Shown: positions 3-25,140 of the stretch, piece by piece | Position numbering within the stretch: the stretch's first letter is position 1 | Layout of the letters: each line of letters begins with the position of its first letter | Assembly (NCBI GenBank): GCA_947631585.1 | Contig: CANRLY010000001.1 | Span: forward strand, 1 to 49,132 | DNA: 49,132 bases | Reading direction: 5' to 3' | Source of the DNA: an uncultured Clostridia bacterium | Lineage (GTDB): Bacteria > Bacillota > Clostridia > Oscillospirales > Ruminococcaceae | The notes under the pieces: generated by a model | Told to the model about the DNA's origin: nothing | The model's database searches: none | Seen by the model: only the letters and a program-made list of their open reading frames with translations | Position numbers and translations under genes: made by a program

Positions 3-161
3 TGTATTGGTTGCAGAATGTGCGAGAGGAAGTGTCCCACCGGAGCGGTCAAAGTAGAGAACAACTTTGCAAAGATCGACTATTCCAAGTGTATCGGCTG
101 CGGTCAGTGCGTAGAAGCGTGCAAAATGGGCGCAATAGCCTATGTGACAGAGGCAAGATAA
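3..161 (+). CDS. 4Fe-4S dicluster ferredoxin-domain protein, C-terminal fragment (5' end outside window)
   Basis: Frame 3 reads CIGCRMCERKCPTGAVKVENNFAKIDYSKCIGCGQCVEACKMGAIAYVTEAR then TAA at 159-161. It carries two CxxCxxCxxxC cluster motifs. It is absent from the ORF track because no start codon lies in the window. Confidence 0.75.
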   Translation, partial: CIGCRMCERKCPTGAVKVENNFAKIDYSKCIGCGQCVEACKMGAIAYVTEAR

Positions 162-2096: not shown

Positions 2097-2124
2097 ATTA
2101 TAGCATCAGCTTTTTTATTGTCAA
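2097..2124 (-). promoter_or_regulatory. Sigma-A type promoter for the peptidase gene
   Basis: The minus strand reads TTGACA (2124-2119), a 16-nt spacer ending in TGc, then TATAAT (2102-2097). Three GTAAC(C/G)ATT direct repeats follow immediately. Confidence 0.6.
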
Positions 2125-2347
2125 GGTCGAAAAAGGGGATAGGAAAATATTTTCAGAAAAATTGTGCAAAATACTTGCTCCGGAAGCGGAAAATTTGTTA
2201 AACTTTCACAAAGGTCAGGTTGGAAAACTTCGCCAGCACCCGAACTATACTATTATAAATGTATTTCCCCCGGCAGCAGCCTTTTGTGAAATTTGCACAG
2301 CTTTATCACACGTTTGTAAAAAAATTTTCGTAAACGTTTGCGAAATC

Positions 2348-2376
2348 TTGACACGGGCAGGTCTATTTGTTATAAT
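2348..2376 (+). promoter_or_regulatory. Consensus sigma-A promoter of the ABC super-operon
   Basis: TTGACA (2348-2353), a 17-nt spacer ending in TGT, then TATAAT (2371-2376). This predicts a ~180-nt leader before the ATG at 2566. Confidence 0.65.
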
Positions 2377-2565
2377 TAAGATTAGCTAAGTATCTCTAAT
2401 TTGAACAAAACACATAATTTTTTACGAAAATATTGCCTTGTAATTAGTGTTTTTCAACAAATAATCAATATCTTGTACCGCTCCTTGAGCTTTGTAACAA
2501 GATATGTCGTCCGTTATCAATTTGCACAAAAAAATTTAAAATTTGTGCTGTGGGAGCTTTTGCGT

Positions 2566-3246
2566 ATGGCTGAAATTATTTTATCCGCTGACTGGGTGTG
2601 CAGGGATTTCAAGATCGGCGACGGCAGCGTCGTGAACGCACTGAAAAACGTCAACGTGCAGGTGGAAAAGGGAACTCTGACTATCCTGCGGGGACGCTCC
2701 GGAAGCGGCAAGACAACTCTCATCAATATCCTTGGCGCTCTCGACAGGCCAACCAGCGGTTCGGTGGTCTTTCAGGGGGAGGATATCACCGCTATGTCCG
2801 AAAAAAAGCGTGATGAGCTGAGAAGATTCAAAATGGCTTTCGTGTTCCAGTCGGTGGCGCTCATCTCCTCTATGACCGCTTACGAAAACGTGGAGTTCGG
2901 GCTGAGGCTGGCTAAGTACCCCTACGACCAGCGGGCGCAAAGAGCCGGGGAAGTCCTGAAAAACGTGGGACTTGAAAAAAGAATGTTCCACCGGCCGGGG
3001 GAAATGTCCGGCGGCGAACAGCAGAGAGTGGCTATCGCAAGGGCTGTTGCTCACGAGCCGGATCTGGTGTTCGCAGACGAACCTACCGCTGAACTGGATA
3101 CGGCTACGGGTCTGCACGTGGTGAAGCTTTTCAAAGAATTGGTGGCTAAACATAATATGACCATCATAATGACTACCCACGATCCCAGCATGATAGATAT
3201 TGCCGACAAGGTATATACTCTGGAGGACGGTGAGATAGTTGAGTGA
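2566..3246 (+). CDS. ABC transporter ATP-binding protein, MacB/LolD-like (NBD1)
   Basis: Walker A GRSGSGKTT, the LGALDRPTSG motif typical of the MacB/LolD/FtsE clade, signature MSGGEQQRVAIARA, Walker B LVFADEPT. The start is moved to the ATG at 2566 (GGGAG SD upstream). The track ORF from 2401 adds an AT-rich non-protein-like leader. Confidence 0.9.
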   Translation: MAEIILSADWVCRDFKIGDGSVVNALKNVNVQVEKGTLTILRGRSGSGKTTLINILGALDRPTSGSVVFQGEDITAMSEKKRDELRRFKMAFVFQSVALISSMTAYENVEFGLRLAKYPYDQRAQRAGEVLKNVGLEKRMFHRPGEMSGGEQQRVAIARAVAHEPDLVFADEPTAELDTATGLHVVKLFKELVAKHNMTIIMTTHDPSMIDIADKVYTLEDGEIVE

Positions 3247-4195
3247 AGCTGTTGTTCAGGAAACTCTGGAACAGACCGGCGGCGACCTGATGATAAGCTG
3301 CGAAAATCTTGTGAAGATCTACAAGACAGACGAGATAGAAGTCGTGGCGCTGCAAGGGCTGGATCTGGAAATCAAAAAAGGCGAACTTATGGCGATAGTC
3401 GGGAACTCGGGAAGCGGCAAGTCTACGCTGCTCAATATGCTGGGCGGTCTCGACAAGCCGTCCGCAGGAAGCTTGTTCGTGGACGGGAAAAACCTGCTGA
3501 AGTTCTCAGACAAGGACTACATGGACTATAAACGGAATACCGTGGGGTTCGTGTGGCAGAACAATGCAAGGAATCTGATACCTTACCTGACGGCGGTGCA
3601 GAACGTGGAAATGCCCATGCTGCTCAAAGGCACTAAGGCAAGACGGAAAAAAGCCGAGAGCCTGCTGGAAAAGGTGGGGCTGGGAGAAAGGAAAAATTCA
3701 CGGCTGGATCAGATGTCGGGCGGTGAGCAGCAAAGAGTCGCTATTGCGATAGCTCTTGCCAACGACCCAAAACTGCTCCTTGCCGATGAGCCTACCGGTT
3801 CGGTGGACACTAAGACTTCCAGGGTGATACTGGATATATTCAAGGAGCTTAACCGGACGGAAGGTATAACCATAGTGATAGTTACCCACGACGTCAAGCT
3901 GGCAAGAAACATTGACAGAGTGGTGGCGATAAGAGACGGGCGGACTTCCTCGGAGATAATCAGGAAAAAATCCTACGTTGAGGAACTTAACGAGATGGGC
4001 GACATCGTAATGGTGGAAAAGCCCGACGACGAGGAGGACGACGAACAAAGAGAAGAATTGGTGGTGCTCGACAGGACGGGTCGGGTGCAGCTGCCAAGAG
4101 AGTACCTGGACGCTCTTGGGATCAAGGGCGGAGGAAAGGTCAGGGCGGAACTGGACAGCGACAACAGCCGCATAGTTATTTTCAGGTCCGATTGA
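3239..4195 (+). CDS. ABC transporter ATP-binding protein, MacB/LolD-like, with acidic linker and AbrB/SpoVT-like C-terminal domain (NBD2)
   Basis: Walker A GNSGSGKST, LGGLDKPSAG, signature MSGGEQQRVAIAIA, Walker B LLLADEPT. The tail reads DDEEDDEQREELVVLDRTGRVQLPREYLDALGIKGGGKVRAELDSDNSRIVIF. The TTG at 3239 overlaps the NBD1 stop; the ATG at 3290 is an alternative start. Confidence 0.85.
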   Translation: MSEAVVQETLEQTGGDLMISCENLVKIYKTDEIEVVALQGLDLEIKKGELMAIVGNSGSGKSTLLNMLGGLDKPSAGSLFVDGKNLLKFSDKDYMDYKRNTVGFVWQNNARNLIPYLTAVQNVEMPMLLKGTKARRKKAESLLEKVGLGERKNSRLDQMSGGEQQRVAIAIALANDPKLLLADEPTGSVDTKTSRVILDIFKELNRTEGITIVIVTHDVKLARNIDRVVAIRDGRTSSEIIRKKSYVEELNEMGDIVMVEKPDDEEDDEQREELVVLDRTGRVQLPREYLDALGIKGGGKVRAELDSDNSRIVIFRSD

Positions 4196-4285
4196 CCGCA
4201 ATTAATAACTTTTTTACACCGATGCCGGTAAAAATATATCGGGAGATTTCCCGAAAAGGCAAATTTCTATGAAAGGTGGATCACA

Positions 4286-7222
4286 GTGAAAAACAAAAAG
4301 CTAAAGCGTCTGACGGCTGCTTTGCTCGCAGTTGCCATGTGCGTGGGCACAGTCCCTGCTGCGTTTGCGGCGGAAGATACCGATTCCGGGCAGGATACCG
4401 CTGCTACGGATAACAGCATTATCTCCGCCGATGATATCGACGCTTCCAACAGGGAAAATTCTTACAGCGCATACCTGGACAGAAACAGCGGCGCTGCAAG
4501 ACCGGATCAGGAGATCATGATTTACGGAAAGGATTACAAGGACCCCACCGAAGAAACGGTAGTCAGCGTCGATGATGTGGACGGCGTTTCCCAGGTAATG
4601 AAGTGGGAGAGCCAGTCCGGTCAGGTGTCCTTTACGGTGGACGTCCCGCAGGCGGGTCTTTACAACATAGAGGCCAGCTATGAGGCTCTTGCAGGAAACA
4701 CCAATACCGTTGAGCTGACATTGGCGATAAACGGAGAGATACCTTACACCACGGCTACCCGTATCACCCTGCCTAAAGTGTGGGTGGATAAAAACGAGAT
4801 AGCTAAGGATATCCATGACAACGATATCCGTCCCGGTCAGGTGGAATCGGTAAGATGGCAGAAAACTCCTCTGAAAGATATCGACGGTCTGTTCAACGAA
4901 CCGCTGGCTTTCTACTTCGAGGCAGGAGAAAATACCATCACCATAAACTCCGACAGAGCGGCTTTCGCACTGGAATATCTCAAGCTCTACAACGAAAAGG
5001 AACTGCCGCTGTATTCCGCTCCCAGTGAGTCGGAGATAGCTTCGGCAAACGGTCAGAGAATACTTATCGAGGGCGAAAAGGCTGCCTATAAAAACGACAG
5101 GTCCCTTTACCCCACCTCGGACAGGACTTCCTACATGACTTCCCCTGCCGACCCGACCAAGACCAGATACAATACCATCGGCAAGGATAACTGGAACCAG
5201 GCTACTCAGTCGATAACCTGGGAGTTCGATGTGGAAACTGCCGGATACTATAAAATAGGTATCAGAGCAAGACAGGATTCCATGAGAGGTCTTTATTCCA
5301 ACAGACGACTCTACATAGACGATGTAGTTCCCAACAGGGAATCCAACCAGATAAAATTCTACTACAATACCGAGTGGGACGTTGTTTACCCGGAGGACGG
5401 CAACGGAGAGCCTATGTACTATTACCTGGACGCAGGCAAACATAAGCTCACGCTGGAAGCTATCCCCGGCGAGATAGGCGAGATCATGGACGAACTGGAA
5501 GGAATAGTTTACCAGATCACTTCCTACTACAGAAGAATAAGAGAGATCACAGGACCTTCCCCCGACGAGTACAACGATTATAAGATAGATAAGTCTATAC
5601 CCACTATCGTGGACGACTTTAAGTCTTACAGCAAGAGACTCAGGGAATTGCAGGCGGAGATTGAAAAGCTCTCCGGAGCTGACGGCGGTTCTGAAGCGGT
5701 AACGCTGGATAAAATGGCAATAGTGCTGGATAAGTGTACCGAAAGGGTCTACAGGATACCAAGCCTGCTCCAGCAGATAAAAGATAATATCTCGGCTGTG
5801 TCCTCCTGGATGCAGACTTACAGAGGTCAGGCTCTGGAACTTGATTTCATAGAACTGACTACCTCCGACCAGGAGTTCACTACCACTAAGAAGAGCTTCT
5901 TCAAATCGCTGGGATTCGGATTCAAGGCGTTCATCGGTTCTTTCTTCGAGGACTATAACTCGCTTTCCGAGGACGGAGAAAATTCCATCACAGTCTGGGT
6001 TTCGCTGGGACGTGACCAGGCACAGGTTGTAAAACAGCTGGTCGACAACGAATTTAACCCGACTTCTGATACCAAGGCGGCTATAAACCTGGTACAGGGC
6101 GGTATCGTTGAGGCTACCCTGGCAGGAAAGGGTCCGGACGTGGCGCTGTTTATCGGAGGAGACTTCCCGATACAGCTTGCCGCACGAGGGGTGCTCACAG
6201 ACCTTACTCAGTTCCCTGACTATGAGGACGCTATCAAGAACTTCACGGAGACCGCTCCGGTGCTGTATACTTACAACGACGGCGTTTACGGTCTGCCGGT
6301 GAGCCAGACGTTCCCGATGCTGTTCTACAGAAAGGATATACTCCAGAGCTACGGCATAGACCCGGAGACCGACCTGGAGACCTGGGAGGACTTCATAGAC
6401 GTGCTTCCCGTTATCCAGAGAAACTACATGGCGGCTGGTCTGGTGCTTCAAGCTAATATAGTGGTAAACGGCGTTACTACAGTTCCTACTACCACTGAAG
6501 CAGGAAATACTTTCGCAACACTGCTTCTGCAAAGAGGTCTTAACTTCTACAACGATGACAAGACCGCTACTACTTTCGATTCTCAGGACGCTATCGAGGC
6601 GTTCGAGATGTGGACCAAGTTCTACACCACCTACAGCTTCGACCAGACCTACGACCCGTTCACAAGATTCAGAACAGGCGATATGCCTATACTTATCAAC
6701 GGATATACTTTCTTTAACCAGCTGTCGGTGGCAGCTCCTGAAATAAAGGGCTGCTGGGACTTCATGCAGATACCCGGAACCCGCAGACCTGACGGAACTG
6801 TCAGCCATGCGTCCTGCTCGTCAGGTTCGGGAGCTATCATTTTCGACGCCTGCGAGGACCAGCAGGCAGCATGGGAATTTATCAAGTGGTTCACTTCCAC
6901 CGAAACACAGGTGGCTTACGGAAACGACATCGAGGCTCTGATGGGAACGATGGGACGTTTCGATACCGCCAACAAGGAAGCGCTGAAACGTCTGTCATGG
7001 TCGCAGACCGAACTTGACAAGCTGGAAGCGCAGATGGACGAACAGGTGGAAATACCTATAATCCCTGCAACATACGCTGTTACGAGAAACCTGACAAACG
7101 CATTCAGGACGGTCGTAAACGACGCCGAAAACCCGAGAGATACGCTTATCTGGTACAACAAGGATATCAACGCTGAGATCACCAGAAAGCTCGAGGACCT
7201 CGGACTGTATTCATCAAATTAA
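4286..7222 (+). CDS. Giant extracellular solute-binding protein (family-1 SBP domain) fused to two N-terminal CBM6/35-like modules
   Basis: GTG start with an AAAGGTGGA SD. The signal peptide ends in AFA. Two jelly-roll-like segments are present (SQSGQVSFTVDVPQAGLYNIEASY.., TQSITWEFDVETAGYYKIGIRAR..LDAGKHKLTLEA). The C-terminal ~430 aa look like a sugar-type SBP (WVSLGRDQAQV.., FYRKDIL.., INGYTFFNQL..). Confidence 0.85.
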   Translation: MKNKKLKRLTAALLAVAMCVGTVPAAFAAEDTDSGQDTAATDNSIISADDIDASNRENSYSAYLDRNSGAARPDQEIMIYGKDYKDPTEETVVSVDDVDGVSQVMKWESQSGQVSFTVDVPQAGLYNIEASYEALAGNTNTVELTLAINGEIPYTTATRITLPKVWVDKNEIAKDIHDNDIRPGQVESVRWQKTPLKDIDGLFNEPLAFYFEAGENTITINSDRAAFALEYLKLYNEKELPLYSAPSESEIASANGQRILIEGEKAAYKNDRSLYPTSDRTSYMTSPADPTKTRYNTIGKDNWNQATQSITWEFDVETAGYYKIGIRARQDSMRGLYSNRRLYIDDVVPNRESNQIKFYYNTEWDVVYPEDGNGEPMYYYLDAGKHKLTLEAIPGEIGEIMDELEGIVYQITSYYRRIREITGPSPDEYNDYKIDKSIPTIVDDFKSYSKRLRELQAEIEKLSGADGGSEAVTLDKMAIVLDKCTERVYRIPSLLQQIKDNISAVSSWMQTYRGQALELDFIELTTSDQEFTTTKKSFFKSLGFGFKAFIGSFFEDYNSLSEDGENSITVWVSLGRDQAQVVKQLVDNEFNPTSDTKAAINLVQGGIVEATLAGKGPDVALFIGGDFPIQLAARGVLTDLTQFPDYEDAIKNFTETAPVLYTYNDGVYGLPVSQTFPMLFYRKDILQSYGIDPETDLETWEDFIDVLPVIQRNYMAAGLVLQANIVVNGVTTVPTTTEAGNTFATLLLQRGLNFYNDDKTATTFDSQDAIEAFEMWTKFYTTYSFDQTYDPFTRFRTGDMPILINGYTFFNQLSVAAPEIKGCWDFMQIPGTRRPDGTVSHASCSSGSGAIIFDACEDQQAAWEFIKWFTSTETQVAYGNDIEALMGTMGRFDTANKEALKRLSWSQTELDKLEAQMDEQVEIPIIPATYAVTRNLTNAFRTVVNDAENPRDTLIWYNKDINAEITRKLEDLGLYSSN

Positions 7223-7241
7223 GAAAGGGGAGTAAATTCTG

Positions 7242-8198
7242 ATGGAAGATAATAATTCTGCTGTTGCTATCGGACAGGAAAAGCCGCTGAACAAGCAAAG
7301 CAAGTTTAAGTACACCCTGCATCAGATGAAGCTGAATGCCGGCTGCTACGGTCTGTTAGCGCCCTTTATGATACTGTTCACAGTGTTCATAATCATACCG
7401 GTAGTCATCTCGCTTCCTCTTGGTTTTACAAACTTCAATATGGTGGAAATGCCTAAGTTTGTGGGATTGTCTAACTTCTATACGCTGTTCCTGAACGACG
7501 ACGTTTTCATGATCGCAGTTAAAAACACTCTGGTGTTTGCGATATTCACAGGACCTTTCAGTTATGCGCTGAGCTTCTTTATTGCATGGCTCATAAACGA
7601 AATGCACCCCAAGCTCAAAACTTTCTTTACCTTCGTGTTCTATGCGCCGTCTATGACACCGTCGGTATACATCATCTGGCAGCTGTTCATGTCCGGCGAC
7701 TCCTACGGCTTCATCAACTCAATAATGATGGACCTGGGATTCATAAACGCTCCGGTGCAGTGGCTCACTGATACCAGATACATACTGGGCGTGGTAATAG
7801 TCGTTCAGCTGTGGATCTCCATGGGCGCAGGATTCCTTGCTATCCGTGCAGGTTTCCAGAACATAGACAAGTCAATGTACGAGGCCGGAGCTATAGAGGG
7901 TATAAGAAACAGATGGCAGGAACTTTTCCTGATAACTGTTCCCTCGATGGGACCGCAGCTGCTGTTTGCGGCAGTAATGCAGATCTCGGCAGCCTTTACG
8001 GTGGGAGCTGTAGGACAGTCTCTGGTGGGACTTCCCTCAACAGACTATGCGGCTCATACCATTATGAATCACGCTACCGACTACGGTACGATCCGTTACG
8101 AAATGGGCTACGCCTGCGCAATATGCTTTATTCTGTTTGCGGCGATGCTGCTGGTGAATAAGCTTATCACATGGCTGCTCGGCAAGTATCTTGACTAA
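7242..8198 (+). CDS. Carbohydrate ABC transporter permease (MalF/CUT1-like), pair 1
   Basis: Six hydrophobic segments. The EAA-loop-like region is YEAGAIEGIRNRWQELFLITVPSMGP. Confidence 0.9.
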   Translation: MEDNNSAVAIGQEKPLNKQSKFKYTLHQMKLNAGCYGLLAPFMILFTVFIIIPVVISLPLGFTNFNMVEMPKFVGLSNFYTLFLNDDVFMIAVKNTLVFAIFTGPFSYALSFFIAWLINEMHPKLKTFFTFVFYAPSMTPSVYIIWQLFMSGDSYGFINSIMMDLGFINAPVQWLTDTRYILGVVIVVQLWISMGAGFLAIRAGFQNIDKSMYEAGAIEGIRNRWQELFLITVPSMGPQLLFAAVMQISAAFTVGAVGQSLVGLPSTDYAAHTIMNHATDYGTIRYEMGYACAICFILFAAMLLVNKLITWLLGKYLD

Positions 8199-8213
8199 GG
8201 AGGTGGAGACGAA

Positions 8214-9110
8214 ATGGCAAATCATAAAAAGAAAAAGGATATCAATGAACTGAAAGTCAAGGATAAACGCAAAAGAATAAACGGAAGCCTGGGCGGAGAT
8301 ATCGTTATCTTCATATTCCTGGCGCTGTTGGGAATATTCATGGTGTTCCCCCTTTACTACGCAATAATCCAGTCTTTCAAACCTATCGAGGAGCTTTTCG
8401 TTTTCCCGCCTAAGCTCTATGTGCTTCGTCCCACAATGAGGAACTACTCGGATATGTTCAAGGTGGCAAGCAGCTTGTGGGTGCCGCTTTCAAGATACAT
8501 ATTCAACAGTGCGTTCGTAACTGTCGTGGTATCAGTGGCAAACATCTTCGTCTGCTGCTGTGCGGCGTTCCCTCTTGCAAAGTGCAAATTCCCCGGAGCG
8601 CAGCTTATCAATAAAATAGTAGTTACTGCGCTGTTGTTCACATCTTCTGCAATGTGGATCATTCAGTTCCTGGTAATGGCAGTGCTGGGCATGATAGATA
8701 CCTACTGGGCTCTTATCCTCCCAAGCGTTGCAACGGCAATGGGACTGTTCCTTATGAGACAGAGCATGACGACTATCCACGACTCGATGATAGAAGCGGC
8801 TAAGGTGGACGGCGCAGGTCTGTTCAGGATCTGCTGGACCATCGTAATGCCAAACTCAAAACCGGCACTTATGACACTTCTGATCTTCGCTTTCCAGGGA
8901 GCCTGGAATATCCAGGGCGGCGCTCTTATCTATTCGGAAGAGCTCAAGACCCTCCCTACTATAATGAACCAGATCTCTGCCGCAGGTATCGCAAGACAGG
9001 GCGTTACCTTCGCAACGGCGGTTATCCTGATGATACCTCCTCTGCTGGTGTTCCTTATCGCTCAGAACAACGTTATGGAAACAATGGCAAACTCCGGTAT
9101 CAAGGATTGA
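8214..9110 (+). CDS. Carbohydrate ABC transporter permease (MalG/CUT1-like), pair 1
   Basis: Polytopic membrane protein. EAA loop IEAAKVDGAGLFRICWTIVMPNSKPAL. Confidence 0.9.
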   Translation: MANHKKKKDINELKVKDKRKRINGSLGGDIVIFIFLALLGIFMVFPLYYAIIQSFKPIEELFVFPPKLYVLRPTMRNYSDMFKVASSLWVPLSRYIFNSAFVTVVVSVANIFVCCCAAFPLAKCKFPGAQLINKIVVTALLFTSSAMWIIQFLVMAVLGMIDTYWALILPSVATAMGLFLMRQSMTTIHDSMIEAAKVDGAGLFRICWTIVMPNSKPALMTLLIFAFQGAWNIQGGALIYSEELKTLPTIMNQISAAGIARQGVTFATAVILMIPPLLVFLIAQNNVMETMANSGIKD

Positions 9111-9157
9111 TATAGGAATGAAAGTCAGATCAAATCATAAAAGGAAACAGGTGATAA

Positions 9158-10762: not shown

Positions 10763-11391
10763 TGTATGAATTTTCAACTTTAGGTTGGCTCAAACACGTT
10801 ATTTTCCATCCGGTGGAAGGCTTTGAAGATCTGAGATGGAAGAAAAAAGGTTCGCTGAAGCTGTCGTTCTTAATAGTTTTCCTGCTCTTTGTGGCAATGG
10901 TAGTGAACCGTCAGCTGAAAGGCTTTGCGTTCAACACCGCTTATGTAAAGGTGTTCAACGTAGTGCCGCTGATAGTGCAGTCGATAGTTTACTTCTTTGT
11001 GTGGGTAATAGGAAACTGGGCGGTATGTACCTTGTTCGACGGCGAGGGAACGCTGAAAAATATCTGCATTTACTCGGCATACGCTCTCGTACCTTATATA
11101 ATAGGCGTGTATGTGTCGGTGTTCATATCGAACTTCCTGATACTGGACGAGGCTATCTGGGTGAACTTCATTTATTTGCTGGGACTGGGCTGGTCGGTGG
11201 TGCTTATGATACAGGCAATGAAAGCCGTCCACCAGTATTCCTTCACAAAAACGATCGTGTCGATCATCGGAACTCTTATAGCAATGCTGCTGATACTTTT
11301 CCTGGCAGTGCTGCTGCTCTCATTGTTCCAGCAGGTGTACGTTTTCGTTTACTCGATCTACACCGAGATCGCATACAGGGTCAGAGGCTGA
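10762..11391 (+). CDS. Yip1-domain-like polytopic membrane protein
   Basis: TAATG overlap with the upstream gene. Five hydrophobic helices. The N-terminal HPVEGFEDLRWKKKGS segment is typical of bacterial Yip1-family proteins (recalled, not searched). Confidence 0.7.
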   Translation: MYEFSTLGWLKHVIFHPVEGFEDLRWKKKGSLKLSFLIVFLLFVAMVVNRQLKGFAFNTAYVKVFNVVPLIVQSIVYFFVWVIGNWAVCTLFDGEGTLKNICIYSAYALVPYIIGVYVSVFISNFLILDEAIWVNFIYLLGLGWSVVLMIQAMKAVHQYSFTKTIVSIIGTLIAMLLILFLAVLLLSLFQQVYVFVYSIYTEIAYRVRG

Positions 11392-11413
11392 GGAAAGGAT
11401 GGTGTTTTGAATC

Positions 11414-14400
11414 ATGCACGGAAAAAAGAAAAAGATCCTTATCTTTGCGTTGGTCCTTTCTATGCTGATGCCGCTGGGCTCCGCTTTTGCAGCTGAGGAG
11501 AACGAAAACGCAGACTCTTCCGCTGAAACGGACGAGAACGGCGCTGAAAACTCCGAGGGCGAAGATGGCGAAGAGGAAGAAGAAGAGGACGAAACTGTCG
11601 ATCTTGCTACCGAAACTACCGCAGAGTACGTTAAGAGCGCAATGGAAGTTCTGGGAAGCGAGAGCGATTATACAGTTTACAAGGGAGTTATCACTAACAG
11701 GCAGAATCTGGATCTGATGCTGGCTAACGCTCAGATGTATCTGGACGCAAAGGATAGCTATACTCCCGAAAGTCTGGGAGCTTACAGCGACGCAGTGGAA
11801 AAGGCAAGACCTCTTGCGGAGGATATGGCGGCTACTCAGTATGAGATAGACGAGGCTGCTATTGAAATTGAAAGAGCGCAGCTGGCTCTGGTGTATGCCG
11901 GACAAGAACCGGTGGAAACTCCTGAACCGGATACGGTGGATAAGAGCGTGTTGCAGAATACGCTGGATTCCGCAGACCCGAATCTGGTGGAAAGCGATTA
12001 CACCGAGTACACCTGGAAGATCTATTCCGATTCGCTGGAAAACGCAAAGAAACTTATCGACGATGCAGCTGCTACTCAGGCTGACGTAAATGCGGCTGTG
12101 AACGAGATAACTTACACCAAGGGCAAACTGCTGGCAGCTCCGAAAGAACAGCTGGCAATAATCTACAACGACCCCGAAAAGGGCGAAACGCTGGTGGCAG
12201 TTATAGACGAGGCTGAGGGGGAAGGCGCAAGCCGCATAAATATGTCTCCCGAAGGCATCTGGGTGGTAGAAACCGACAGCAGCTACAGCAAGCTGGAAAA
12301 TTTCTACATCAAACTGTTGAGCAAGAACGAGTCCAGCGCATTTGTTACAACAGATAAGGACGCTGTTTATATCATGGACGCTTCCGCCGGAACTATCTCG
12401 GATACCTACGCTTATCAGGGCGAGGACAACGAGAACGGCAGAAAGTTCGTTTCGGAAAGCAGCGGAAGAATAATGTTCACCACGCTGGAGACCGACAGGC
12501 TCCTGGCTGACGTGCAGCTGGCTATGGAAAATGAGAACCTGGCAGTTTACGCCGACGAGGTGAACGGAAAACTTGCTCTTTATGACAAGAAAGGGGATAA
12601 ATACTGGTGGTCAACGCCGGTAAATCCCTACGGCGATCAAACTATCATCGACCAGGCTAAGATGACTTCCATGAAACTGCCTCAGAGGAATCAGTCGGCT
12701 TCGGGACTGATACTCCAGTACGGCGACCTGAGACAGGAGAAGAGGAACGTAACTGACCTTTACTCCAAAGCAGTGCAGGAGACCAAAGCCGGAAGCGAGA
12801 CCTGGAAGATCTCCGGAAACGGTCTGACCGTTACCTATAAGTTCAGGGACGGCGGATTTGAAGTTCCGGTAGAGTATAAGCTCTATGACGACAGGCTGGA
12901 AGCTTCGGTGGATATGGAAAAAGTCGTTGAAAAGACGGCTGACGACTCGGTGAGCGGAAAGATAGTCACCGCCCTTACCCTTAACCCATCGTTCGGTGCG
13001 GCTCCTCTGCTGGACCTTGCCGGAAATGAAGTCGAGGGATATATGGTCATTCCTGACGGAAGCGGAGCTATTATACGTTACAACAACGGAAAACAAGGCT
13101 ACACTTCCTACACCCAGCAGCTTTACGGCAGAGACAAGACCACAGTTCCCCTTAATGCGCCGAGAGTTACAGAACAGGCTTACCTGCCGCTGATAGCTAC
13201 GGTGGAAGGCAAGAACGGTCTTGTGGCTATTGCTACCGACGGCGACGGAAACGCTTCAGTAAACGCTCAGGTGAGCAGGCAGAACAAGCAGGCTTTCAAT
13301 ACCGTGAACTTTACTTTCAACCTGAGAAGCTCCGACACCTACTACATGGGCGGAACGGACGGAACCAGGATAACGGTGTTTGAAAAGGGCAAGATCAAGA
13401 CCGATAAAATAGCGGTAAGCTATTATCCTATAAGCGATGAGAAGGAAGTAAACTACGCAGATGTGGCTGCGGTCTACAGAAACTACCTTATCACAGAAAA
13501 GGGTCTTGAGAAAAAGACTGAAGCCGGAAAGACAAACCTTTATCTTGACCTGTTCGGAGGCGTGCTGAAAGAAACTTCTATCGCCGGAGTGCCGGTGGAT
13601 ATGAAAACCAGAGTTACTACGTTCGACCAGGCGGAAGAAATAATCAAGAAGCTGTCCGACGGCGGAGTTACCAGCATGGTGGCAAATTACAACCAGTGGA
13701 CCAACAAGTCTATGGTAGGAAAAATTTCCACCAAGTTCAAACCCTCCGGAAAATTAGGCGGAAAGAGCGGATTTGAGGATTTTCAGACGGCAGCGCAGTC
13801 GATGAACACGGTCATCTATCCCTCTATCTCCAATATGGAAATGAAGAGCAGCACCTGGGGATTCCTCACTTTGAACAGTACGGCGATAAGAGTTTCAAAC
13901 GCTCAGTCAAGACAAAGCAAGTACAGTATTGCGTTTGGAGTACAGCAGTCGGGTAAAGCTCCCGCCCTGCTCTCGCCTAACGCTTACACCAAGGCGATGA
14001 CTCAGATGGTGGAAAGCTTCACCGATAAGGGTCAGAAGAATATCGGCTTCGGCGAATACTCAAATACGCTGGTGTCTGACTTTTCAAGAAAACACGCTCT
14101 CAGCAGAGAGTCTAACGAAGATAACCTTGTGGAGAACTACAAAAAGGCATCTGAGCAGATGGAAAGCATTATCGCAGACGAGGCAAACGCTTATATTATC
14201 CCGTATGTGGATCATATAACCAATGTGCCTGTTTACTCCAGCCAGTATAATATGGCGGATCTGGATATACCGCTTTACCAGATGGTCATTCACGGATATG
14301 TTCCGTATGCGTCAACTCCTGTAAACGCTAATTCCAACGCTGAAGAAGTGTTTATGCTGTCGCTGGCATCAGGTTCGGCAATACACTACGATATGTTCTA

Positions 14401-14701
14401 CGAGGAAGCTTATGAACTGATAGATACGGACTTCAACGACCTGTACTACGCAAATTACGCAGGCTGGATAGACCCCGCTATCAAACAGTATCAGCTCAGC
14501 GACAAGATACTCAGTCAGGTGAGCGACAAGATCATCACCGATTACCAGGTCAATGAGGAGACCGGAGTTATTACCACGACTTACAGCTCTGAAGGTTCGG
14601 CGGACGTTGTGATAACTATTGACACGGTCAACGCCACGGCAGATGTAAACGGCGTTAAGTACGATCTTAAAACAGCTATAGAAGGAGGTTTGCAGGGCTA
14701 A
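11414..14701 (+). CDS. Large secreted protein (1095 aa) with acidic N-terminus, two FIVAR-like helical repeats and a large uncharacterised domain (possibly DUF5696-like)
   Basis: Signal peptide ending in AFA. An E/D-rich stretch. FIVAR-like repeats (YTPESLGAYSDAVEKARPLAEDMAATQYEIDEAAIEIERA; YTWKIYSDSLENAKKLIDDAAATQADVNAAVNEITYTK). The remaining ~800 aa show no motif I can name. The DUF5696 assignment is from memory of similar neighbourhoods only. Confidence 0.7.
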   Translation: MHGKKKKILIFALVLSMLMPLGSAFAAEENENADSSAETDENGAENSEGEDGEEEEEEDETVDLATETTAEYVKSAMEVLGSESDYTVYKGVITNRQNLDLMLANAQMYLDAKDSYTPESLGAYSDAVEKARPLAEDMAATQYEIDEAAIEIERAQLALVYAGQEPVETPEPDTVDKSVLQNTLDSADPNLVESDYTEYTWKIYSDSLENAKKLIDDAAATQADVNAAVNEITYTKGKLLAAPKEQLAIIYNDPEKGETLVAVIDEAEGEGASRINMSPEGIWVVETDSSYSKLENFYIKLLSKNESSAFVTTDKDAVYIMDASAGTISDTYAYQGEDNENGRKFVSESSGRIMFTTLETDRLLADVQLAMENENLAVYADEVNGKLALYDKKGDKYWWSTPVNPYGDQTIIDQAKMTSMKLPQRNQSASGLILQYGDLRQEKRNVTDLYSKAVQETKAGSETWKISGNGLTVTYKFRDGGFEVPVEYKLYDDRLEASVDMEKVVEKTADDSVSGKIVTALTLNPSFGAAPLLDLAGNEVEGYMVIPDGSGAIIRYNNGKQGYTSYTQQLYGRDKTTVPLNAPRVTEQAYLPLIATVEGKNGLVAIATDGDGNASVNAQVSRQNKQAFNTVNFTFNLRSSDTYYMGGTDGTRITVFEKGKIKTDKIAVSYYPISDEKEVNYADVAAVYRNYLITEKGLEKKTEAGKTNLYLDLFGGVLKETSIAGVPVDMKTRVTTFDQAEEIIKKLSDGGVTSMVANYNQWTNKSMVGKISTKFKPSGKLGGKSGFEDFQTAAQSMNTVIYPSISNMEMKSSTWGFLTLNSTAIRVSNAQSRQSKYSIAFGVQQSGKAPALLSPNAYTKAMTQMVESFTDKGQKNIGFGEYSNTLVSDFSRKHALSRESNEDNLVENYKKASEQMESIIADEANAYIIPYVDHITNVPVYSSQYNMADLDIPLYQMVIHGYVPYASTPVNANSNAEEVFMLSLASGSAIHYDMFYEEAYELIDTDFNDLYYANYAGWIDPAIKQYQLSDKILSQVSDKIITDYQVNEETGVITTTYSSEGSADVVITIDTVNATADVNGVKYDLKTAIEGGLQG

Positions 14702-15816
14702 TGGAAGAAAATAAAAAAATGGAGGCTTCCGAGGAAATGGTAAATGCCTCAGAAGCTGCTCCAGAAGAAATTTCTCAGACTGAAGAAGCTGTTGCAGACG
14801 TAACTTCAGGTAAGATCAAAGACGGAGAGATGGAGTTCTCGTTCGATACTCCGGAGAAAAAGGACGAGAACACTCCGCTTGAAAGCAAGGCTTCCAAAAA
14901 GAAGCCCAAGCAAAAGGGTATGAAGATACCCTACGAAAGAAGAAAGATGCTCTACGGCTACGGATTTATCGCTCTGTGGTTCATCGGAACTATCTACTTC
15001 TTCATCATGCCTACGATAACTTCGCTTATCTATTCGTTCAACGACACTCAGCCTGTTTCAGGAAAGATGCAGCTGGATTTCGTGGGCATACAGAATTACT
15101 ACAACGCATTCAGGAAAGATACGGCTTACACCAAGAACCTGCTGGACGTTCTGGGCTCTACAATTCTGAAAACACCGCTGATAATCATTTTCTCAATCTT
15201 CGTAGCGGTAATACTCAACCAGAAGTTCAGGGGCAGGACTTTCGCAAGAGCGGTATTCTTCCTGCCGGTAATAATCGCAACAGGACCGGTTTACGACATA
15301 ATCACCGGTAACATGAACACCGGTGGATATTCAGGCGGTTCTGAGCAGTTCAGCACCATGTTTGAGACGGACCTTGTGGATCAGCTGCTGACGTTTTTGG
15401 GAATTTACAATATAAGCGACAAGCTGACGTCAGCCATTACGACCATCACGTCGGATATCTTCAACATGGTATGGAACGCAGGTATCCAGATACTGCTGTT
15501 CTTGTCGGCGCTGCAAAACATTCCCTATTCCGCCAAGGAAGCCGCCCAGATGGAAGGCGCTACGGCGTGGGAATACTTCTGGAAGATCACAGTGCCTTAT
15601 ATCAGCCCGATGATCATGGCAAGCCTTGTTTACACGGTAGTTGACTCGTTCGTTGACCCGACCAACTCAGTAATGCAGCAGGTAGTTTCCAAGTCCTCGC
15701 AGTGGGAGCACGGTTACAGTGCGGCGATGGCGTGGGCGTACTTCGCAATAGTGGGAGTCGTTCTGGCGATAGCAGTTGTCATCGTAAACAAGTTTGTATA
15801 CTATGAAGTGGATTAA
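14701..15816 (+). CDS. Carbohydrate ABC transporter permease (MalF-like), pair 2, with ~85-aa acidic N-terminal extension
   Basis: TAATG overlap with the upstream gene and a GAAGGAGG SD. EAA loop KEAAQMEGATAWEYFWKITVPYISP. Six TM segments. Confidence 0.88.
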   Translation: MEENKKMEASEEMVNASEAAPEEISQTEEAVADVTSGKIKDGEMEFSFDTPEKKDENTPLESKASKKKPKQKGMKIPYERRKMLYGYGFIALWFIGTIYFFIMPTITSLIYSFNDTQPVSGKMQLDFVGIQNYYNAFRKDTAYTKNLLDVLGSTILKTPLIIIFSIFVAVILNQKFRGRTFARAVFFLPVIIATGPVYDIITGNMNTGGYSGGSEQFSTMFETDLVDQLLTFLGIYNISDKLTSAITTITSDIFNMVWNAGIQILLFLSALQNIPYSAKEAAQMEGATAWEYFWKITVPYISPMIMASLVYTVVDSFVDPTNSVMQQVVSKSSQWEHGYSAAMAWAYFAIVGVVLAIAVVIVNKFVYYEVD

Positions 15817-15828
15817 GGGGGGATAAGA

Positions 15829-16878
15829 GTGGCAACCAGAAAAGAAGAAAAACAATTTGCAAAAGAAATGAAAGCGGCTAAAAAAGCCAAGCTCAAAGCA
15901 ATGAAAGCGGCTGGTATCAAGCCCGACCTTACTCCCGAGCAGATACGTTACAACCGCAACAAAGCTCTGGTAGGAGCAGTGTGGCCGATATTCAGGTTCC
16001 TGATACTTTTCGGACTCTGCTTCATAATCCTCTACCCTCTTATCTTCATGTTCTCAACGGCGTTCAGACCCAACGACCAGATGTCTGACCCGTCCATCGT
16101 GTGGATACCGAGAAGTCTTACCTTGCAGAACATCAAGGAGACCTGGACCACTATTTCTTACGGTTCTACGGCTCTCCAGACGGTAAGGCTCAACCTTATT
16201 TCCTCGCTGCTGTCCGTTGCTTCCTGTGCTATCACAGGCTACGGATTTGCAAGATTCAAGTTCAAGGGAAAAAATCTGCTGTTTGCGATAGTTGTTCTGA
16301 TGATAATTGTACCGCCTCAGATCACCACGATTCCGCTGTTCGTACAGTTTGCATACTTCAAGGGATTCGGACTGGTAAAGCTGTTCACCGGCAAGCCGTA
16401 TATCTCCCTTATCGACCACGGCATAACGATGTACGCACCGGCGTTGTTCGCCAACGGTATCAAGGCAGGACTGTTCATCTACATATTCAGGCAGTTCTTC
16501 AGAGGGCTTCCCAAGGAGCTTGAGGACGCCGCCTATCTGGACGGCTGCGGTCCGTTCAAGACCTTTGTAAAGGTCATGATACCCAATGCAGCCTCCTCAT
16601 TCCTGACGGTATTCCTTTTCTCCATTGTTTGGTACTGGAACGACTACTATGTTTCGTCCTCGTTCTTCACGGACAACAGTACTATTGCTCTGGAGCTGAA
16701 AAACCTGGACAACACTCTGAGGGCGCAGTTGTTTGACAACCAGCCCGTAACGCCCAGGCAGATCATTGTTTGGCTGGAATCAGGTTGTATTCTTGCCACC
16801 GCCCCGATACTCATTATGTACATCTTTTTACAAAGGTATTTTGTTGAAGGTGTAGAGCGTTCGGGTCTGGTAGGCTGA
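15829..16878 (+). CDS. Carbohydrate ABC transporter permease (MalG-like), pair 2, with ~50-aa basic N-terminal extension
   Basis: GTG start. EAA loop LEDAAYLDGCGPFKTFVKVMIPNAASS. The lysine-rich N-terminal helix is KEEKQFAKEMKAAKKAKLKAMKAAG. Confidence 0.88.
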   Translation: MATRKEEKQFAKEMKAAKKAKLKAMKAAGIKPDLTPEQIRYNRNKALVGAVWPIFRFLILFGLCFIILYPLIFMFSTAFRPNDQMSDPSIVWIPRSLTLQNIKETWTTISYGSTALQTVRLNLISSLLSVASCAITGYGFARFKFKGKNLLFAIVVLMIIVPPQITTIPLFVQFAYFKGFGLVKLFTGKPYISLIDHGITMYAPALFANGIKAGLFIYIFRQFFRGLPKELEDAAYLDGCGPFKTFVKVMIPNAASSFLTVFLFSIVWYWNDYYVSSSFFTDNSTIALELKNLDNTLRAQLFDNQPVTPRQIIVWLESGCILATAPILIMYIFLQRYFVEGVERSGLVG

Positions 16879-16896
16879 TATCGAAAACTACAGCAA

Positions 16897-16931
16897 GAGC
16901 CGCACCCCTGTCGGGGTGCGGCTCGATTTTT
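16897..16931 (+). terminator. Intrinsic terminator of the ABC super-operon
   Basis: GAGCCGCACCCC-TGTC-GGGGTGCGGCTC (12-bp stem) followed by GATTTTT. Confidence 0.85.
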
Positions 16932-16940
16932 GCTTTGGCA

Positions 16941-18102: not shown

Positions 18103-18121
18103 TTAACACTCCTTGATATTA

Positions 18122-20955: not shown

Positions 20956-21014
20956 TTTTCAATATCGACCTTTCTTTATAAGTTTTATTTAAGGCTTAGC
21001 GCAAAGCAACAGCA

Positions 21015-21848: not shown

Positions 21849-21863
21849 ACTTCCTATTTCGGA

Positions 21864-25137: not shown

Positions 25138-25140
25138 GAA

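What the first reader, a model, noticed from the sequence alone, without database searches (positions are those of the whole stretch)
2348..16931. Twelve-gene single-promoter ABC locus built from mismatched parts
A consensus promoter (2348) and a strong terminator (16897) bracket 12 same-strand genes. Most gaps are short and two junctions are TAATG overlaps. The genes are two MacB/LolD-clade ATPases, one 978-aa CBM-fused binding protein, two complete pairs of CUT1-type sugar permeases, and three non-transporter proteins placed between the permease pairs. By established knowledge, CUT1 permeases work with MalK/MsiK-type ATPases, while MacB/LolD-type ATPases partner FtsX-like permeases. No FtsX-like gene is present here. 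There are four permeases, one SBP and two different NBDs, and the second permease pair carries unusual charged N-terminal extensions. This does not fit a standard importer. It could be an undescribed polysaccharide capture, uptake or secretion machine.
Basis: partly seen in the sequence, partly recalled or inferred. Interest (0 to 1): 0.8.

Follow-up and report, generated by a model that had tools for sequence, protein, structure and literature searches.

The report
Conserved Ruminococcus sugar-uptake module with borrowed ATPases
This is a real ten-gene operon from a gut or rumen Ruminococcus relative: an unstudied eight-gene sugar-capture and uptake module found in hundreds of species, plus two ATPase genes that most likely serve a MacB-type pump whose membrane parts are encoded elsewhere.

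Summary
The operon is real, but it has ten genes, not twelve. The consensus promoter (2348-2376), the terminator (16897-16924) and both TAATG overlaps are confirmed.

The core is eight genes: giant CBM35-SBP, two permeases, NHL/TPR protein, Yip1 protein, DUF5696, two permeases. Their order is the same in every one of about 90 related loci with enough flank, down to about 25% identity. DUF5696 has no sequence match to any solved structure. Its model folds like GH129/GH101/GH36 glycosidases.

The two ATPases are type VII (LolD/MacB-like) and are not part of the core:
- They sit beside the module in 46 of 71 loci.
- In metagenomes the same ATPase pair usually follows one to three membrane-fusion-protein genes and a roughly 950-aa double-FtsX permease.
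- That unit lies next to the module in four different arrangements.
- R. albus and relatives carry a membrane-fusion-protein/FtsX pair with no ATPase gene beside it.

So the "mismatch" is best read as a split YknWXYZ-like pump, with the Yip1 protein matching YknW, linked genetically to a double CUT1 importer and a glycosidase-like enzyme. The permeases probably use a shared MsmK-type ATPase. No FtsX gene lies in this window, so direct pairing of the ATPases with the permeases is not excluded. I found no paper describing the system.

The parts
2328..2343 (+). Near-perfect 16-bp palindrome TCGTAAACGTTTGCGA just upstream of the -35 box; candidate operator of LacI/CcpA-like shape
   Evidence: Read from the sequence. 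The core AA(A/T)CGTTT is conserved at the same place in L003, L088 and L089. The full pattern occurs once in the window. Its function is inferred.
2348..2376 (+). Promoter: TTGACA, 17 nt, TG-TATAAT
   Evidence: 12/12 consensus match. Both hexamers are invariant in three related loci.
2384..2565 (+). AT-rich 5' leader of about 180-190 nt with a conserved TTTGCACAAA element
   Evidence: No Rfam match. TTTGCACAAA is invariant in four loci. Four of the 18 window matches to this motif cluster in 2162-2529.
2566..3246 (+). NBD1: 226-aa type VII (LolD/MacB-like) ABC ATPase
   Evidence: PF00005. Best NCBIfam hits are LolD, DevA and FtsE, all below cut-off. PDB top hits are Spr0694 (5xu1), MJ0796, YtrE and LolD. 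Walker A and B, the LSGGEQQR-type signature and the H-loop are intact. The start at 2566 follows homologue lengths of 225-226 aa.
3239..4195 (+). NBD2: 318-aa type VII ABC ATPase with a linker and a small C-terminal AbrB/SpoVT-like domain
   Evidence: PF00005, plus PF04014 at 22.5 bits, just under its cut-off; many homologues carry a precomputed PF04014 hit. The top 23 Foldseek hits of its AF2 model are all type VII ATPases at 28-44% identity. It is 39% identical to NBD1. Natural NBD1-NBD2 fusions exist.
4286..7222 (+). 978-aa secreted binding protein: two CBM35/CBM6-like modules, a helical bundle (about residues 400-550), then a CUT1-type SBP domain (about 560-978)
   Evidence: SBP_bac_8, SBP_bac_1 and CBM_35. 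The SBP domain matches the solved binding protein CbpB and other sugar SBPs. A profile of the N-terminal half gives weak CBM35/CBM6 hits and helical-bundle hits. It has a signal peptide and no canonical lipobox.
7242..8198 (+). PermA1: MalF/UgpA-like type I importer permease
   Evidence: NCBIfam hits to UgpA, GlcT and MalF. EAA loop EAGAIEGIRNRWQELFLITVP; about 6 TM helices.
8214..9110 (+). PermB1: MalG/UgpE-like permease
   Evidence: BPD_transp_1 and UgpE/MalG hits. EAA loop EAAKVDGAGLFRICWTIVMP.
9158..10762 (+). 534-aa extracytoplasmic NHL beta-propeller plus TPR region, with a C-terminal TM anchor
   Evidence: A profile of 22 orthologues hits Pizza/PknD-sensor NHL propellers (1e-57 and 3e-23) and TPR proteins. 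Signal peptide, and a TM helix at 489-507. It is fused to the Yip1 domain in L007.
10762..11391 (+). 209-aa Yip1-family polytopic membrane protein
   Evidence: PF04893 at 62.8 bits. About 5 TM helices. Invariant partner of the NHL protein in all loci.
11414..14701 (+). 1095-aa secreted DUF5696 protein: FIVAR helices, beta domains, a (beta/alpha)8 barrel and a C-terminal beta sandwich; candidate new glycoside hydrolase family
   Evidence: PF18952 at 514 bits, plus FIVAR. No sequence hit in the PDB, with a single sequence or with a profile. AF2 model pLDDT 70.8. Foldseek hits: GH129 at 3e-20, NagBb at 1e-17, then GH101, GH36, GH97 and GH31. Acidic residues conserved in 85 sequences include D889 and D949 on barrel loops. 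The family has 3,524 clusters at 50% identity with E<=1e-30.
14701..15816 (+). PermA2: second MalF/UgpA-like permease, with an N-terminal low-complexity charged extension of about 85 aa
   Evidence: BPD_transp_1 and UgpA hits. 26% identical to PermA1, so an old paralogue. EAA loop EAAQMEGATAWEYFWKITVP.
15829..16878 (+). PermB2: second MalG/UgpE-like permease, with a basic N-terminal extension of about 50 aa
   Evidence: BPD_transp_1 at 70 bits and MalG/UgpE hits. 21% identical to PermB1. EAA loop EDAAYLDGCGPFKTFVKVMIP.
16897..16934 (+). Intrinsic terminator, probably shared with the convergent glf gene
   Evidence: 12-bp stem with 10 G-C pairs, a 4-nt loop and a T-run.

Best explanation
The operon joins two things.

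(1) An ancient, fixed eight-gene module: CBM35-SBP, PermA1, PermB1, NHL/TPR anchor protein, Yip1 membrane protein, DUF5696 glycosidase-like enzyme, PermA2, PermB2. I read it as a cell-surface glycan capture, cleavage and uptake unit. The giant binding protein holds a polysaccharide through its CBMs. DUF5696, a GH129/GH101/GH36-like barrel, cuts it. Two different CUT1-type importers take up the products. The NHL-Yip1 pair, fused in one lineage, acts as a membrane scaffold.

(2) A heterodimeric type VII ATPase, NBD1 plus NBD2. It belongs to a MacB/YknXYZ-like system made of one to three membrane-fusion proteins and a 950-1000-aa double-FtsX permease. In this lineage the ATPase genes stay at the 5' end of the module operon, and the membrane-fusion and FtsX genes lie elsewhere in the genome.

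By analogy with B. subtilis YknWXYZ, where the Yip1-family protein YknW helps assemble YknXYZ, the module's Yip1 protein is the likely physical link between the pump and the importer module. The four CUT1 permeases most likely use a shared MsmK/MsmX-type ATPase encoded elsewhere.

Shown: gene content, the invariant order, the recurrent linkage of the two units, the folds, and the split arrangement in relatives.

Inferred: who binds whom, import as the direction of transport, hydrolase activity, and the substrate.
For: - The eight-gene order is identical in all related loci with enough flank, from 76% down to about 25% DUF5696 identity. At least 539 matching stretches in the species-representative genome collection encode a DUF5696 relative.
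- NBD1-NBD2 lies directly upstream in 46 loci and is absent in 25 loci that have at least 2.2 kb of upstream sequence. In seven of those 25 that I inspected, the upstream genes are unrelated: ThrRS, spoIIA, and an unrelated generic ABC-2-type transporter.
- Eighty metagenome loci were found with an NBD2-specific motif. In 38 of 48 with enough upstream sequence, an FtsX ORF ends within 600 nt of NBD1, and most of the rest also show upstream FtsX hits. These operons begin with one to three HlyD-like membrane-fusion genes.
- The pump unit and the module are adjacent in four arrangements:
  - the FtsX-NBD1-NBD2 unit, with a weak membrane-fusion-like hit upstream in L163, then the SBP after a 104-126 nt gap (L163, L168);
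  - the same order with a GH43 gene in between (L131, L144, L151);
  - the module followed by the pump unit (L164, L170);
  - NBD1-NBD2, the module, then the membrane-fusion and FtsX genes (L019, L021, L026, L027).
- R. albus, Ruminococcus sp. Marseille-P6503 and a third lineage have membrane-fusion/FtsX pairs with no adjacent ATPase gene. The R. albus AR67 module locus has the ATPases but no FtsX gene.
- Natural NBD1-NBD2 fusions support a heterodimer. One of them lies directly after an FtsX gene.
- NBD2's closest structures are all type VII ATPases.
- YknW is a Yip1-family protein needed for assembly of YknXYZ (PMC4887032).
- Shared ATPases for CUT1 importers in Firmicutes are documented (PMC7658222).
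- DUF5696 fold and conserved acidic residues; NHL propeller; CBM35 and SBP domains.
Against: - No membrane-fusion or FtsX gene lies in this 49-kb contig. The slot that holds them in a syntenic relative is occupied here by a CE2 esterase and a MatE gene. This organism might therefore lack them, and the ATPases would then need another partner.
- The ATPases appear to be co-transcribed with importer genes. The gap is 90 nt and holds no convincing terminator, as in ordinary cognate ABC operons.
- By plain sequence score, the Opp/Dpp ATPases of M. tuberculosis, which serve type I permeases, match NBD2 as well as LolD does.
- I could not show in one and the same genome that the module-linked ATPases and an FtsX pair without its own ATPase co-occur. 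The only hint is a shared longest-contig length.
- The DUF5696 model is of moderate quality (pLDDT 70.8) and the catalytic residues are only guessed.
- There are no expression, binding or transport data.
Confidence: 0.55

Rival explanations
1. One reading: NBD1/NBD2 directly energise one or both CUT1-type permease pairs, giving a cross-class pairing of type VII ATPases with type I importer membrane domains. The ten genes would then be a self-contained machine.
For: - The genes are co-operonic with a 90-nt gap and no terminator, and this holds in 46 species-level loci.
- No FtsX gene lies in the window.
- All four permeases have intact EAA loops that need an ATPase.
- Opp/Dpp ATPases, which serve type I importers, score as high as LolD against NBD2.
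- There are two different ATPases and two permease pairs.
Against: - The same ATPase pair is normally encoded right after a double-FtsX permease.
- Membrane-fusion/FtsX pairs with no ATPase gene beside them exist in Ruminococcus.
- 25 module loci have no adjacent ATPase gene.
- From my recollection of the E. coli sequences, not tested here, the EAA loops look like ordinary MalF/MalG-type loops.
- NBD2's structural neighbours are exclusively type VII.
- The ATPases have no TOBE-like MalK domain.
Confidence: 0.2
2. The module is not a nutrient importer. It would maintain or remodel the cell's own surface glycan (capsule, teichoic-acid-like or galactofuranose polymer): the MacB-like pump and DUF5696 would process or release the polymer, and the importers would recycle the fragments.
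For: - The core Ruminococcus loci sit among housekeeping genes rather than CAZyme clusters.
- In this window the module is convergent with a Glf/GlfT/Wzm-Wzt/GT2 glycan synthesis cluster.
- The R. albus membrane-fusion/FtsX pair sits next to LicD, TagF-like and IspD genes.
- The L174 pair is near GT2/GtrA, NAGPA and sulfatase genes.
- Type VII ABC systems typically do extracytoplasmic work on envelope components (established knowledge: LolCDE, FtsEX).
Against: - The neighbours are not conserved between loci.
- Distant loci have GH43, GH20 and amylase/dockerin genes next to the module, which points to dietary glycans.
- CBM35 plus an SBP is typical of nutrient capture.
Confidence: 0.15
3. There is no functional link: the ATPase genes are a rearrangement remnant that happens to lie upstream of an independent sugar-uptake operon.
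For: The ATPases are dispensable for the module's gene order: 25 loci lack them. Most pump operons in the metagenome set stand alone within 10 kb (27 of 32).
Against: - Four different adjacency arrangements occur in lineages whose DUF5696 proteins are only about 25-60% identical.
- A conserved single promoter lies in front of NBD1.
- NBD2 is 75-88% identical across species while remaining in this position.
- The module contains a Yip1 protein, the accessory component of the one characterised MFP/FtsX/Yip1 system.
Confidence: 0.1

Closest known systems
CUT1-family type I ABC sugar importers (MalFGK2-E, UgpAEC-B, the cellodextrin system that includes CbpB); TC 3.A.1.1
   Same: - An SBP_bac_1/8 binding domain.
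- MalF/UgpA-like plus MalG/UgpE-like permease pairs with canonical EAA loops.
- As is common in Firmicutes, no MalK-type ATPase gene in the operon.
   Different: - Two old paralogous permease pairs (21-26% identical) but only one binding protein.
- The binding protein is 978 aa, with two CBM-like modules and a helical bundle in front of the SBP domain, and has no lipobox.
- Three non-transporter genes are fixed between the two permease pairs.
- The only ATPases in the operon are type VII, not MalK/MsmK-like.
Bacillus subtilis YknWXYZ, the S. pneumoniae MacAB-like pump (Spr0693-0695) and E. coli MacAB: type VII ABC systems with a membrane-fusion protein
   Same: - LolD/MacB-clade ATPases.
- A Yip1-family membrane protein (the YknW counterpart) is present.
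- In relatives, a YknX-like membrane-fusion protein and an FtsX-type permease with MacB-like extracytoplasmic domains are encoded beside the same ATPases or beside the module.
   Different: - The ATPase is a heterodimer of two paralogues (39% identical), and one carries a C-terminal AbrB-like domain.
- The permease is a single roughly 950-1000-aa chain with two FtsX halves and two extracytoplasmic domains.
- The genes are split between loci.
- The Yip1 gene is embedded in a sugar-importer module next to an NHL propeller.
- In this window the FtsX and membrane-fusion genes are missing.
GH129 (NagBb alpha-N-acetylgalactosaminidase, ZgGH129), GH101 and the GH36/GH31/GH97 glycosidases
   Same: The predicted domain order is the same (N-terminal beta domain, (beta/alpha)8 barrel, C-terminal beta sandwich), and the best Foldseek matches are to these families. 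FIVAR modules also occur in GH101 enzymes and in the lacto-N-biosidase LnbX. Conserved Asp residues lie on barrel loops.
   Different: There is no detectable sequence similarity to any of these families (9-14% identity in the structural alignments; no HMM hit). The catalytic residues are not established. The protein is always encoded inside an ABC module.
Gram-positive polysaccharide utilisation loci (gpPULs)
   Same: An ABC sugar transporter is co-located with a putative extracellular CAZyme and a carbohydrate-binding module.
   Different: - No regulator gene in the operon.
- The gene order is fixed across hundreds of species, whereas typical gpPULs are variable.
- It includes NHL, Yip1 and type VII ABC components, which are not known gpPUL parts.

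Membership tests
CUT1 type I ABC importer (TC 3.A.1.1) | Extracytoplasmic solute-binding protein of the SBP_bac_1/8 (MalE/UgpB) type | tested here: met
   SBP_bac_8 at 89 bits and SBP_bac_1 at 75 bits over residues 604-881. PDB hits to the solved binding protein CbpB and other sugar SBPs.
CUT1 type I ABC importer (TC 3.A.1.1) | Two BPD_transp_1 membrane subunits (MalF-like and MalG-like), each with an EAA coupling loop | tested here: met
   Met twice over. Three of the four permeases pass the Pfam threshold. PermA1 is detected only by the NCBIfam UgpA, GlcT and MalF models, below their cut-offs. All four have EAA loops.
CUT1 type I ABC importer (TC 3.A.1.1) | MalK/MsmK-type ATPase with a C-terminal regulatory (TOBE-like) domain | tested here: not met
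   Neither ATPase in the operon is of this type. Best matches are LolD, MacB, DevA and FtsE and type VII structures. MalK-type chains score about 40 bits lower against NBD1. No such gene was found among the ORFs of the window that I scanned. It may be encoded elsewhere, as is usual in Firmicutes (PMC7658222).
CUT1 type I ABC importer (TC 3.A.1.1) | Demonstrated sugar uptake | not testable with these tools
   Needs transport assays or mutant growth tests.
Type VII (MacB/LolCDE/FtsEX/YknYZ) ABC system | ATPase of the LolD/MacB clade (LSGGEQQR-type signature) | tested here: met
   Signature MSGGEQQRVAIA in both ATPases. LolD, MacB, DevA and FtsE are the top NCBIfam models, although below their equivalog cut-offs. 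The top 23 Foldseek hits are all type VII. Caveat: Opp/Dpp ATPases score equally by phmmer.
Type VII (MacB/LolCDE/FtsEX/YknYZ) ABC system | FtsX-family permease with an extracytoplasmic domain | tested here: not met
   None in the window (phmmer and tblastn). Present next to the orthologous ATPases or next to the module in relatives, and as pairs without an ATPase gene in R. albus and others.
YknWXYZ-type four-component transporter | Membrane-fusion protein (YknX-like) | tested here: not met
   Not in the window. HlyD/YknX_C-like genes precede the FtsX gene in relatives.
YknWXYZ-type four-component transporter | Yip1-family accessory membrane protein (YknW-like) | tested here: met
   PF04893 Yip1 at 62.8 bits against a cut-off of 28.6. 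YknW is described as a Yip1-family protein in PMC4887032. I did not compare the sequence directly with YknW.
Glycoside hydrolase, GH129/GH101/GH36-like | Fold: N-terminal beta domain, (beta/alpha)8 catalytic barrel, C-terminal beta sandwich | tested here: met
   AF2 model. Foldseek: GH129 at 3.4e-20 (TM-score on target 0.61), NagBb at 1e-17, then GH101, GH36, GH97 and GH31. The model quality is moderate (pLDDT 70.8).
Glycoside hydrolase, GH129/GH101/GH36-like | Sequence membership in a CAZy GH family | tested here: not met
   Only Pfam DUF5696 matches. No PDB sequence hit with a single sequence or with a profile. If it is active, it would be a new family.
Glycoside hydrolase, GH129/GH101/GH36-like | Catalytic nucleophile and acid/base carboxylates on barrel strands 4 and 6 | tested here: inconclusive
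   D889 (after strand 4) and D949 (after strand 6) are conserved in at least 95% of 85 sequences. No residue-level superposition on a known enzyme could be made.

The most novel reading that the evidence does not exclude
The module and the split pump would form one envelope supercomplex of a kind not yet described. A type VII mechanotransducing ABC transporter (membrane-fusion tunnel, double-FtsX permease, NBD1/NBD2 heterodimer) would be coupled, through a Yip1-NHL adaptor, to a founding member of a new glycosidase family and to two type I importers. ATP hydrolysis in the cytoplasm would then drive or gate polysaccharide capture or cleavage outside the membrane, in step with uptake. This would be a Gram-positive counterpart, built from ABC parts, of the energised glycan capture that Bacteroidota achieve with SusCD/TonB. 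It would be present in most rumen and gut Ruminococcus fibre degraders.
Probability: 0.25. Interest if true: 0.85.

Novelty: new variant of a known kind. Interest (0 to 1): 0.62.

Why it matters
- Ruminococcus species (R. albus, R. flavefaciens, R. callidus and relatives) are key fibre degraders in the rumen and the human gut.
- Many of them carry this fixed eight-gene module. I found no paper that mentions its signature protein (DUF5696) or this gene combination.
- The DUF5696 family has thousands of sequence clusters and a glycosidase-like fold, so characterising one member could found a new CAZy family.
- The repeated genetic coupling of a MacB/YknXYZ-type pump to a double sugar importer, with a Yip1 protein as the shared element, gives a concrete and testable hypothesis. 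It bears on what Yip1 proteins and Gram-positive membrane-fusion pumps do, and on how Gram-positive bacteria hold secreted binding proteins and enzymes at the cell surface.
- It is also a caution for annotation. ABC ATPase genes inside an importer operon need not be that importer's motor.

Tried and rejected
- Riboswitch or known RNA in the 190-nt leader or elsewhere in the locus: no Rfam match even at E<=0.1.
- Attenuator or terminator between NBD2 and the SBP gene: the hairpin is not better than shuffled sequence (z = -1.3), and the terminator-like hit there is on the minus strand.
- Functional tie to the downstream Glf/GlfT/Wzm-Wzt cluster: it is convergent and is not found next to the module in other loci.
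- Recent duplication as the origin of the second permease pair: rejected, because the pairs are only 21-26% identical.
- Literature: searches for DUF5696; for Yip1 with ABC transporter and Ruminococcus; for NHL repeat with Ruminococcus; and for Yip1, FtsX, membrane-fusion protein and carbohydrate ABC transporter together found nothing relevant.
I used a profile search of the PDB instead.
The only hint is that an NBD2 cluster and an FtsX cluster list the same longest-contig length, 370,050 bp.
- An MsmK-like ATPase near the module: no ABC ATPase recurs next to the module in the loci annotated, apart from NBD1/NBD2 themselves; only weak, scattered generic ABC ATPase hits were seen.

Full report
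**What is in the window**

Between a perfect sigma-70 promoter and the strongest terminator-like hairpin of the scanned region lie ten + strand ORFs, not twelve.
- The promoter is TTGACA, 17 nt, TG-TATAAT at 2348-2376. The terminator is at 16897-16924.
- Gaps between the ORFs run from -8 to 90 nt, with two TAATG overlaps at 10762 and 14701.
- The first ORF most likely starts at ATG 2566, since homologues are 225-226 aa. This leaves a leader of about 190 nt with no Rfam match.
- The promoter, a 16-bp palindrome (TCGTAAACGTTTGCGA, 2328-2343) abutting the -35 box, and a TTTGCACAAA element in the leader are conserved in three related loci. The promoter is therefore real, and it serves the ATPase genes and, with no terminator in between, the rest of the operon.

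**Gene products**
- NBD1 (2566-3246) and NBD2 (3239-4195) are ABC ATPases. Their best family models are LolD, DevA, FtsE and MacB. NBD2 also has a linker and a small AbrB/SpoVT-like C-terminal domain.
- A 978-aa secreted protein (4286-7222) has CBM35-like modules, a helical bundle and a CUT1-type SBP domain.
- PermA1/PermB1 (7242-9110) and PermA2/PermB2 (14701-16878) are MalF/UgpA-like and MalG/UgpE-like permeases. All four have canonical EAA loops. The two pairs are only 21-26% identical, so they are old paralogues.
- A 534-aa protein (9158-10762) has a signal peptide, an NHL six-blade propeller and TPR region, and a C-terminal TM anchor. Its profile hits PknD-sensor/Pizza propellers at 1e-57 and 3e-23.
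- A 209-aa Yip1-family membrane protein is at 10762-11391.
- A 1095-aa secreted DUF5696 protein with FIVAR modules is at 11414-14701.

**DUF5696**
- It has no sequence similarity to any solved structure, with a single sequence or with a profile.
- An AF2 model (pLDDT 70.8) shows beta domains, a (beta/alpha)8 barrel and a C-terminal beta sandwich.
- Foldseek places it next to GH129 (3e-20), NagBb (1e-17), GH101, GH36, GH97 and GH31.
- In 85 family members the conserved acidic residues include D889 and D949, on loops after barrel strands 4 and 6. That is where retaining glycosidases of this fold carry their nucleophile and acid/base. This assignment is suggestive and not proven.
- The family has 3,524 clusters at 50% identity with E<=1e-30. 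No paper in the library mentions it.

**Conservation of the module**
- A scan of the species-representative genome collection found at least 539 stretches that encode a DUF5696 relative. The best 80 are Ruminococcus and other Oscillospiraceae, including R. albus, R. callidus ATCC 27760, R. flavefaciens and Hominimerdicola aceti.
- I annotated these loci, plus seven found by exact-protein look-up, with the ten window proteins.
- The order SBP, PermA1, PermB1, NHL, Yip1, DUF5696, PermA2, PermB2 is identical in every locus with enough flank, down to about 25% DUF5696 identity.
- In one distant locus the NHL and Yip1 proteins are fused.
- The embedded triad and the double permease pair are therefore a fixed, ancient unit.

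**The ATPases are not part of that unit**
- NBD1-NBD2 lies directly upstream in 46 loci. It is absent in 25 loci that have at least 2.2 kb of upstream sequence.
- In seven of those 25 that I inspected, the upstream genes are unrelated.
- NBD2 is much better conserved (75-88% identity) than the module proteins.
- Natural NBD1-NBD2 fusion proteins exist. One is encoded right after an FtsX permease.

**Where the ATPases normally sit**
- I searched metagenome contigs with an NBD2-specific motif (GFVWQNNARNL).
- In 38 of 48 loci with enough upstream sequence, a 940-1000-aa FtsX permease ends within 600 nt of NBD1. This permease has two FtsX domains, a MacB-like extracytoplasmic domain, about 10 TM helices and two large external domains. 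Most of the remaining loci also show FtsX hits upstream.
- One to three HlyD-like membrane-fusion genes precede the FtsX gene.

**The pump unit is repeatedly linked to the module**
- It lies immediately before the SBP gene in L163 and L168.
- It lies before the SBP gene with a GH43 gene in between in L131, L144 and L151.
- It lies after PermB2 in L164 and L170.
- In the Hominimerdicola group (L019, L021, L026, L027) the ATPases are at the 5' end of the module and the membrane-fusion and FtsX genes at the 3' end.
- R. albus strains, Ruminococcus sp. Marseille-P6503 and a third lineage carry a membrane-fusion/FtsX pair with no ATPase gene next to it. The R. albus AR67 module locus has the ATPases and no FtsX gene.

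**Interpretation of the "mismatch"**
- The two ATPases are the heterodimeric motor of a MacB/YknXYZ-like type VII system. Its genes have been split, and only the ATPase genes stayed with the module in this lineage.
- NBD2's structural neighbours are exclusively type VII ATPases (LolD, YbbA, MacB, MJ0796, BceA, Spr0694, YtrE).
- The one characterised Gram-positive system of this kind, B. subtilis YknWXYZ, needs a Yip1-family protein, YknW, for assembly (PMC4887032). The module contains a Yip1 protein, which makes it the natural candidate link between pump and module.
- A CUT1 operon without its own ATPase is ordinary in Firmicutes, where one MsmX/MsmK-type ATPase serves many importers (PMC7658222).
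- From my memory of the E. coli sequences, not tested here, the EAA loops look like ordinary MalF/MalG loops.

**What remains open**
- The window has no FtsX or membrane-fusion gene. The place where they lie in a syntenic relative (VTC, DUF4956, Cthe_2159..., MFP, FtsX, Clp) holds a CE2 esterase and a MatE gene here.
- I could not inspect the rest of this genome, and I could not show co-occurrence within a single genome.
- By plain phmmer score, the Opp/Dpp ATPases of M. tuberculosis match NBD2 as well as LolD does.
- Direct pairing of NBD1/NBD2 with the CUT1-like permeases therefore keeps about a 20% chance.
- Import as the direction of transport, hydrolase activity of DUF5696, and the substrate are all inferences. 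Neighbouring genes in distant loci (GH43, GH20, NAGPA, amylase/dockerin) point to glycan use. Neighbours in Ruminococcus are housekeeping or cell-wall-glycan genes, which keeps a surface-glycan turnover role alive.

**Verdict**

The more interesting result is a conserved eight-gene module with a candidate new glycosidase family, genetically coupled to a split YknWXYZ-like pump, in major gut and rumen fibre degraders.

Noticed in passing
window 16987-26599 (- strand): A gene cluster convergent with the operon. It encodes UDP-galactopyranose mutase (Glf), a zinc alcohol dehydrogenase, a protein with a weak GlfT2-domain hit (below the Pfam cut-off), an ABC-2 Wzm/Wzt-type exporter pair and several GT2 glycosyltransferases. 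It looks like an ABC-transporter-dependent pathway for a galactofuranose-containing cell-wall glycan. It is not conserved next to the module in other loci.
   Followed up: partly
window 2162-2529: The motif TTTGCACAA (one mismatch allowed) occurs four times within 370 bp of the divergent promoter region and leader, out of 18 matches in the whole 49-kb window. The copy in the leader is invariant in four loci. It may be a regulator binding site.
   Followed up: partly
window 2097-2124 (- strand) and 925-2064 (- strand): A second perfect 12/12 consensus promoter points the other way. It drives a secreted G5-domain M23 peptidase gene. The two consensus promoters are back to back, about 220 bp apart.
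   Followed up: no
window 140-880: A repeat-rich non-coding stretch. It holds units of about 288 nt (81% identical), several copies of GAGGCAAGAGGCAAGAG-type motifs, and G+C-rich hairpins (TCCCCCTCCCC...GGAGGGGGA) at 255-278 and 543-566. Its nature is unknown.
   Followed up: no
window 3239-4195, residues about 277-318 of NBD2: An ABC ATPase with a C-terminal SpoVT/AbrB-like (MazE_antitoxin, PF04014) mini-domain after a disordered linker of about 40 residues. It is conserved in the orthologues, including the distant FtsX-linked fusion P0129. I do not know of any described regulatory or dimerisation role for this domain in ABC ATPases.
   Followed up: partly
window 35294-44620 compared with L173:2947-16186: The order VTC, DUF4956, Cthe_2159..., Clp ATPase is shared with Ruminococcus sp. 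Marseille-P6503. Where that genome has the membrane-fusion and FtsX genes (plus an LRR protein), the window has a CE2 esterase and a MatE transporter.
   Followed up: partly
L094:2832-6170 and many other metagenome loci: The stand-alone pump operons carry two or three tandem paralogous HlyD-like membrane-fusion genes ahead of the double-FtsX permease, and in the human-gut group a polysaccharide deacetylase gene follows. Several membrane-fusion paralogues for a single pump is unusual.
   Followed up: no
window 25066-25137 and 25473-25546 (- strand): Two tRNA genes lie inside the glycosyltransferase cluster.
   Followed up: no
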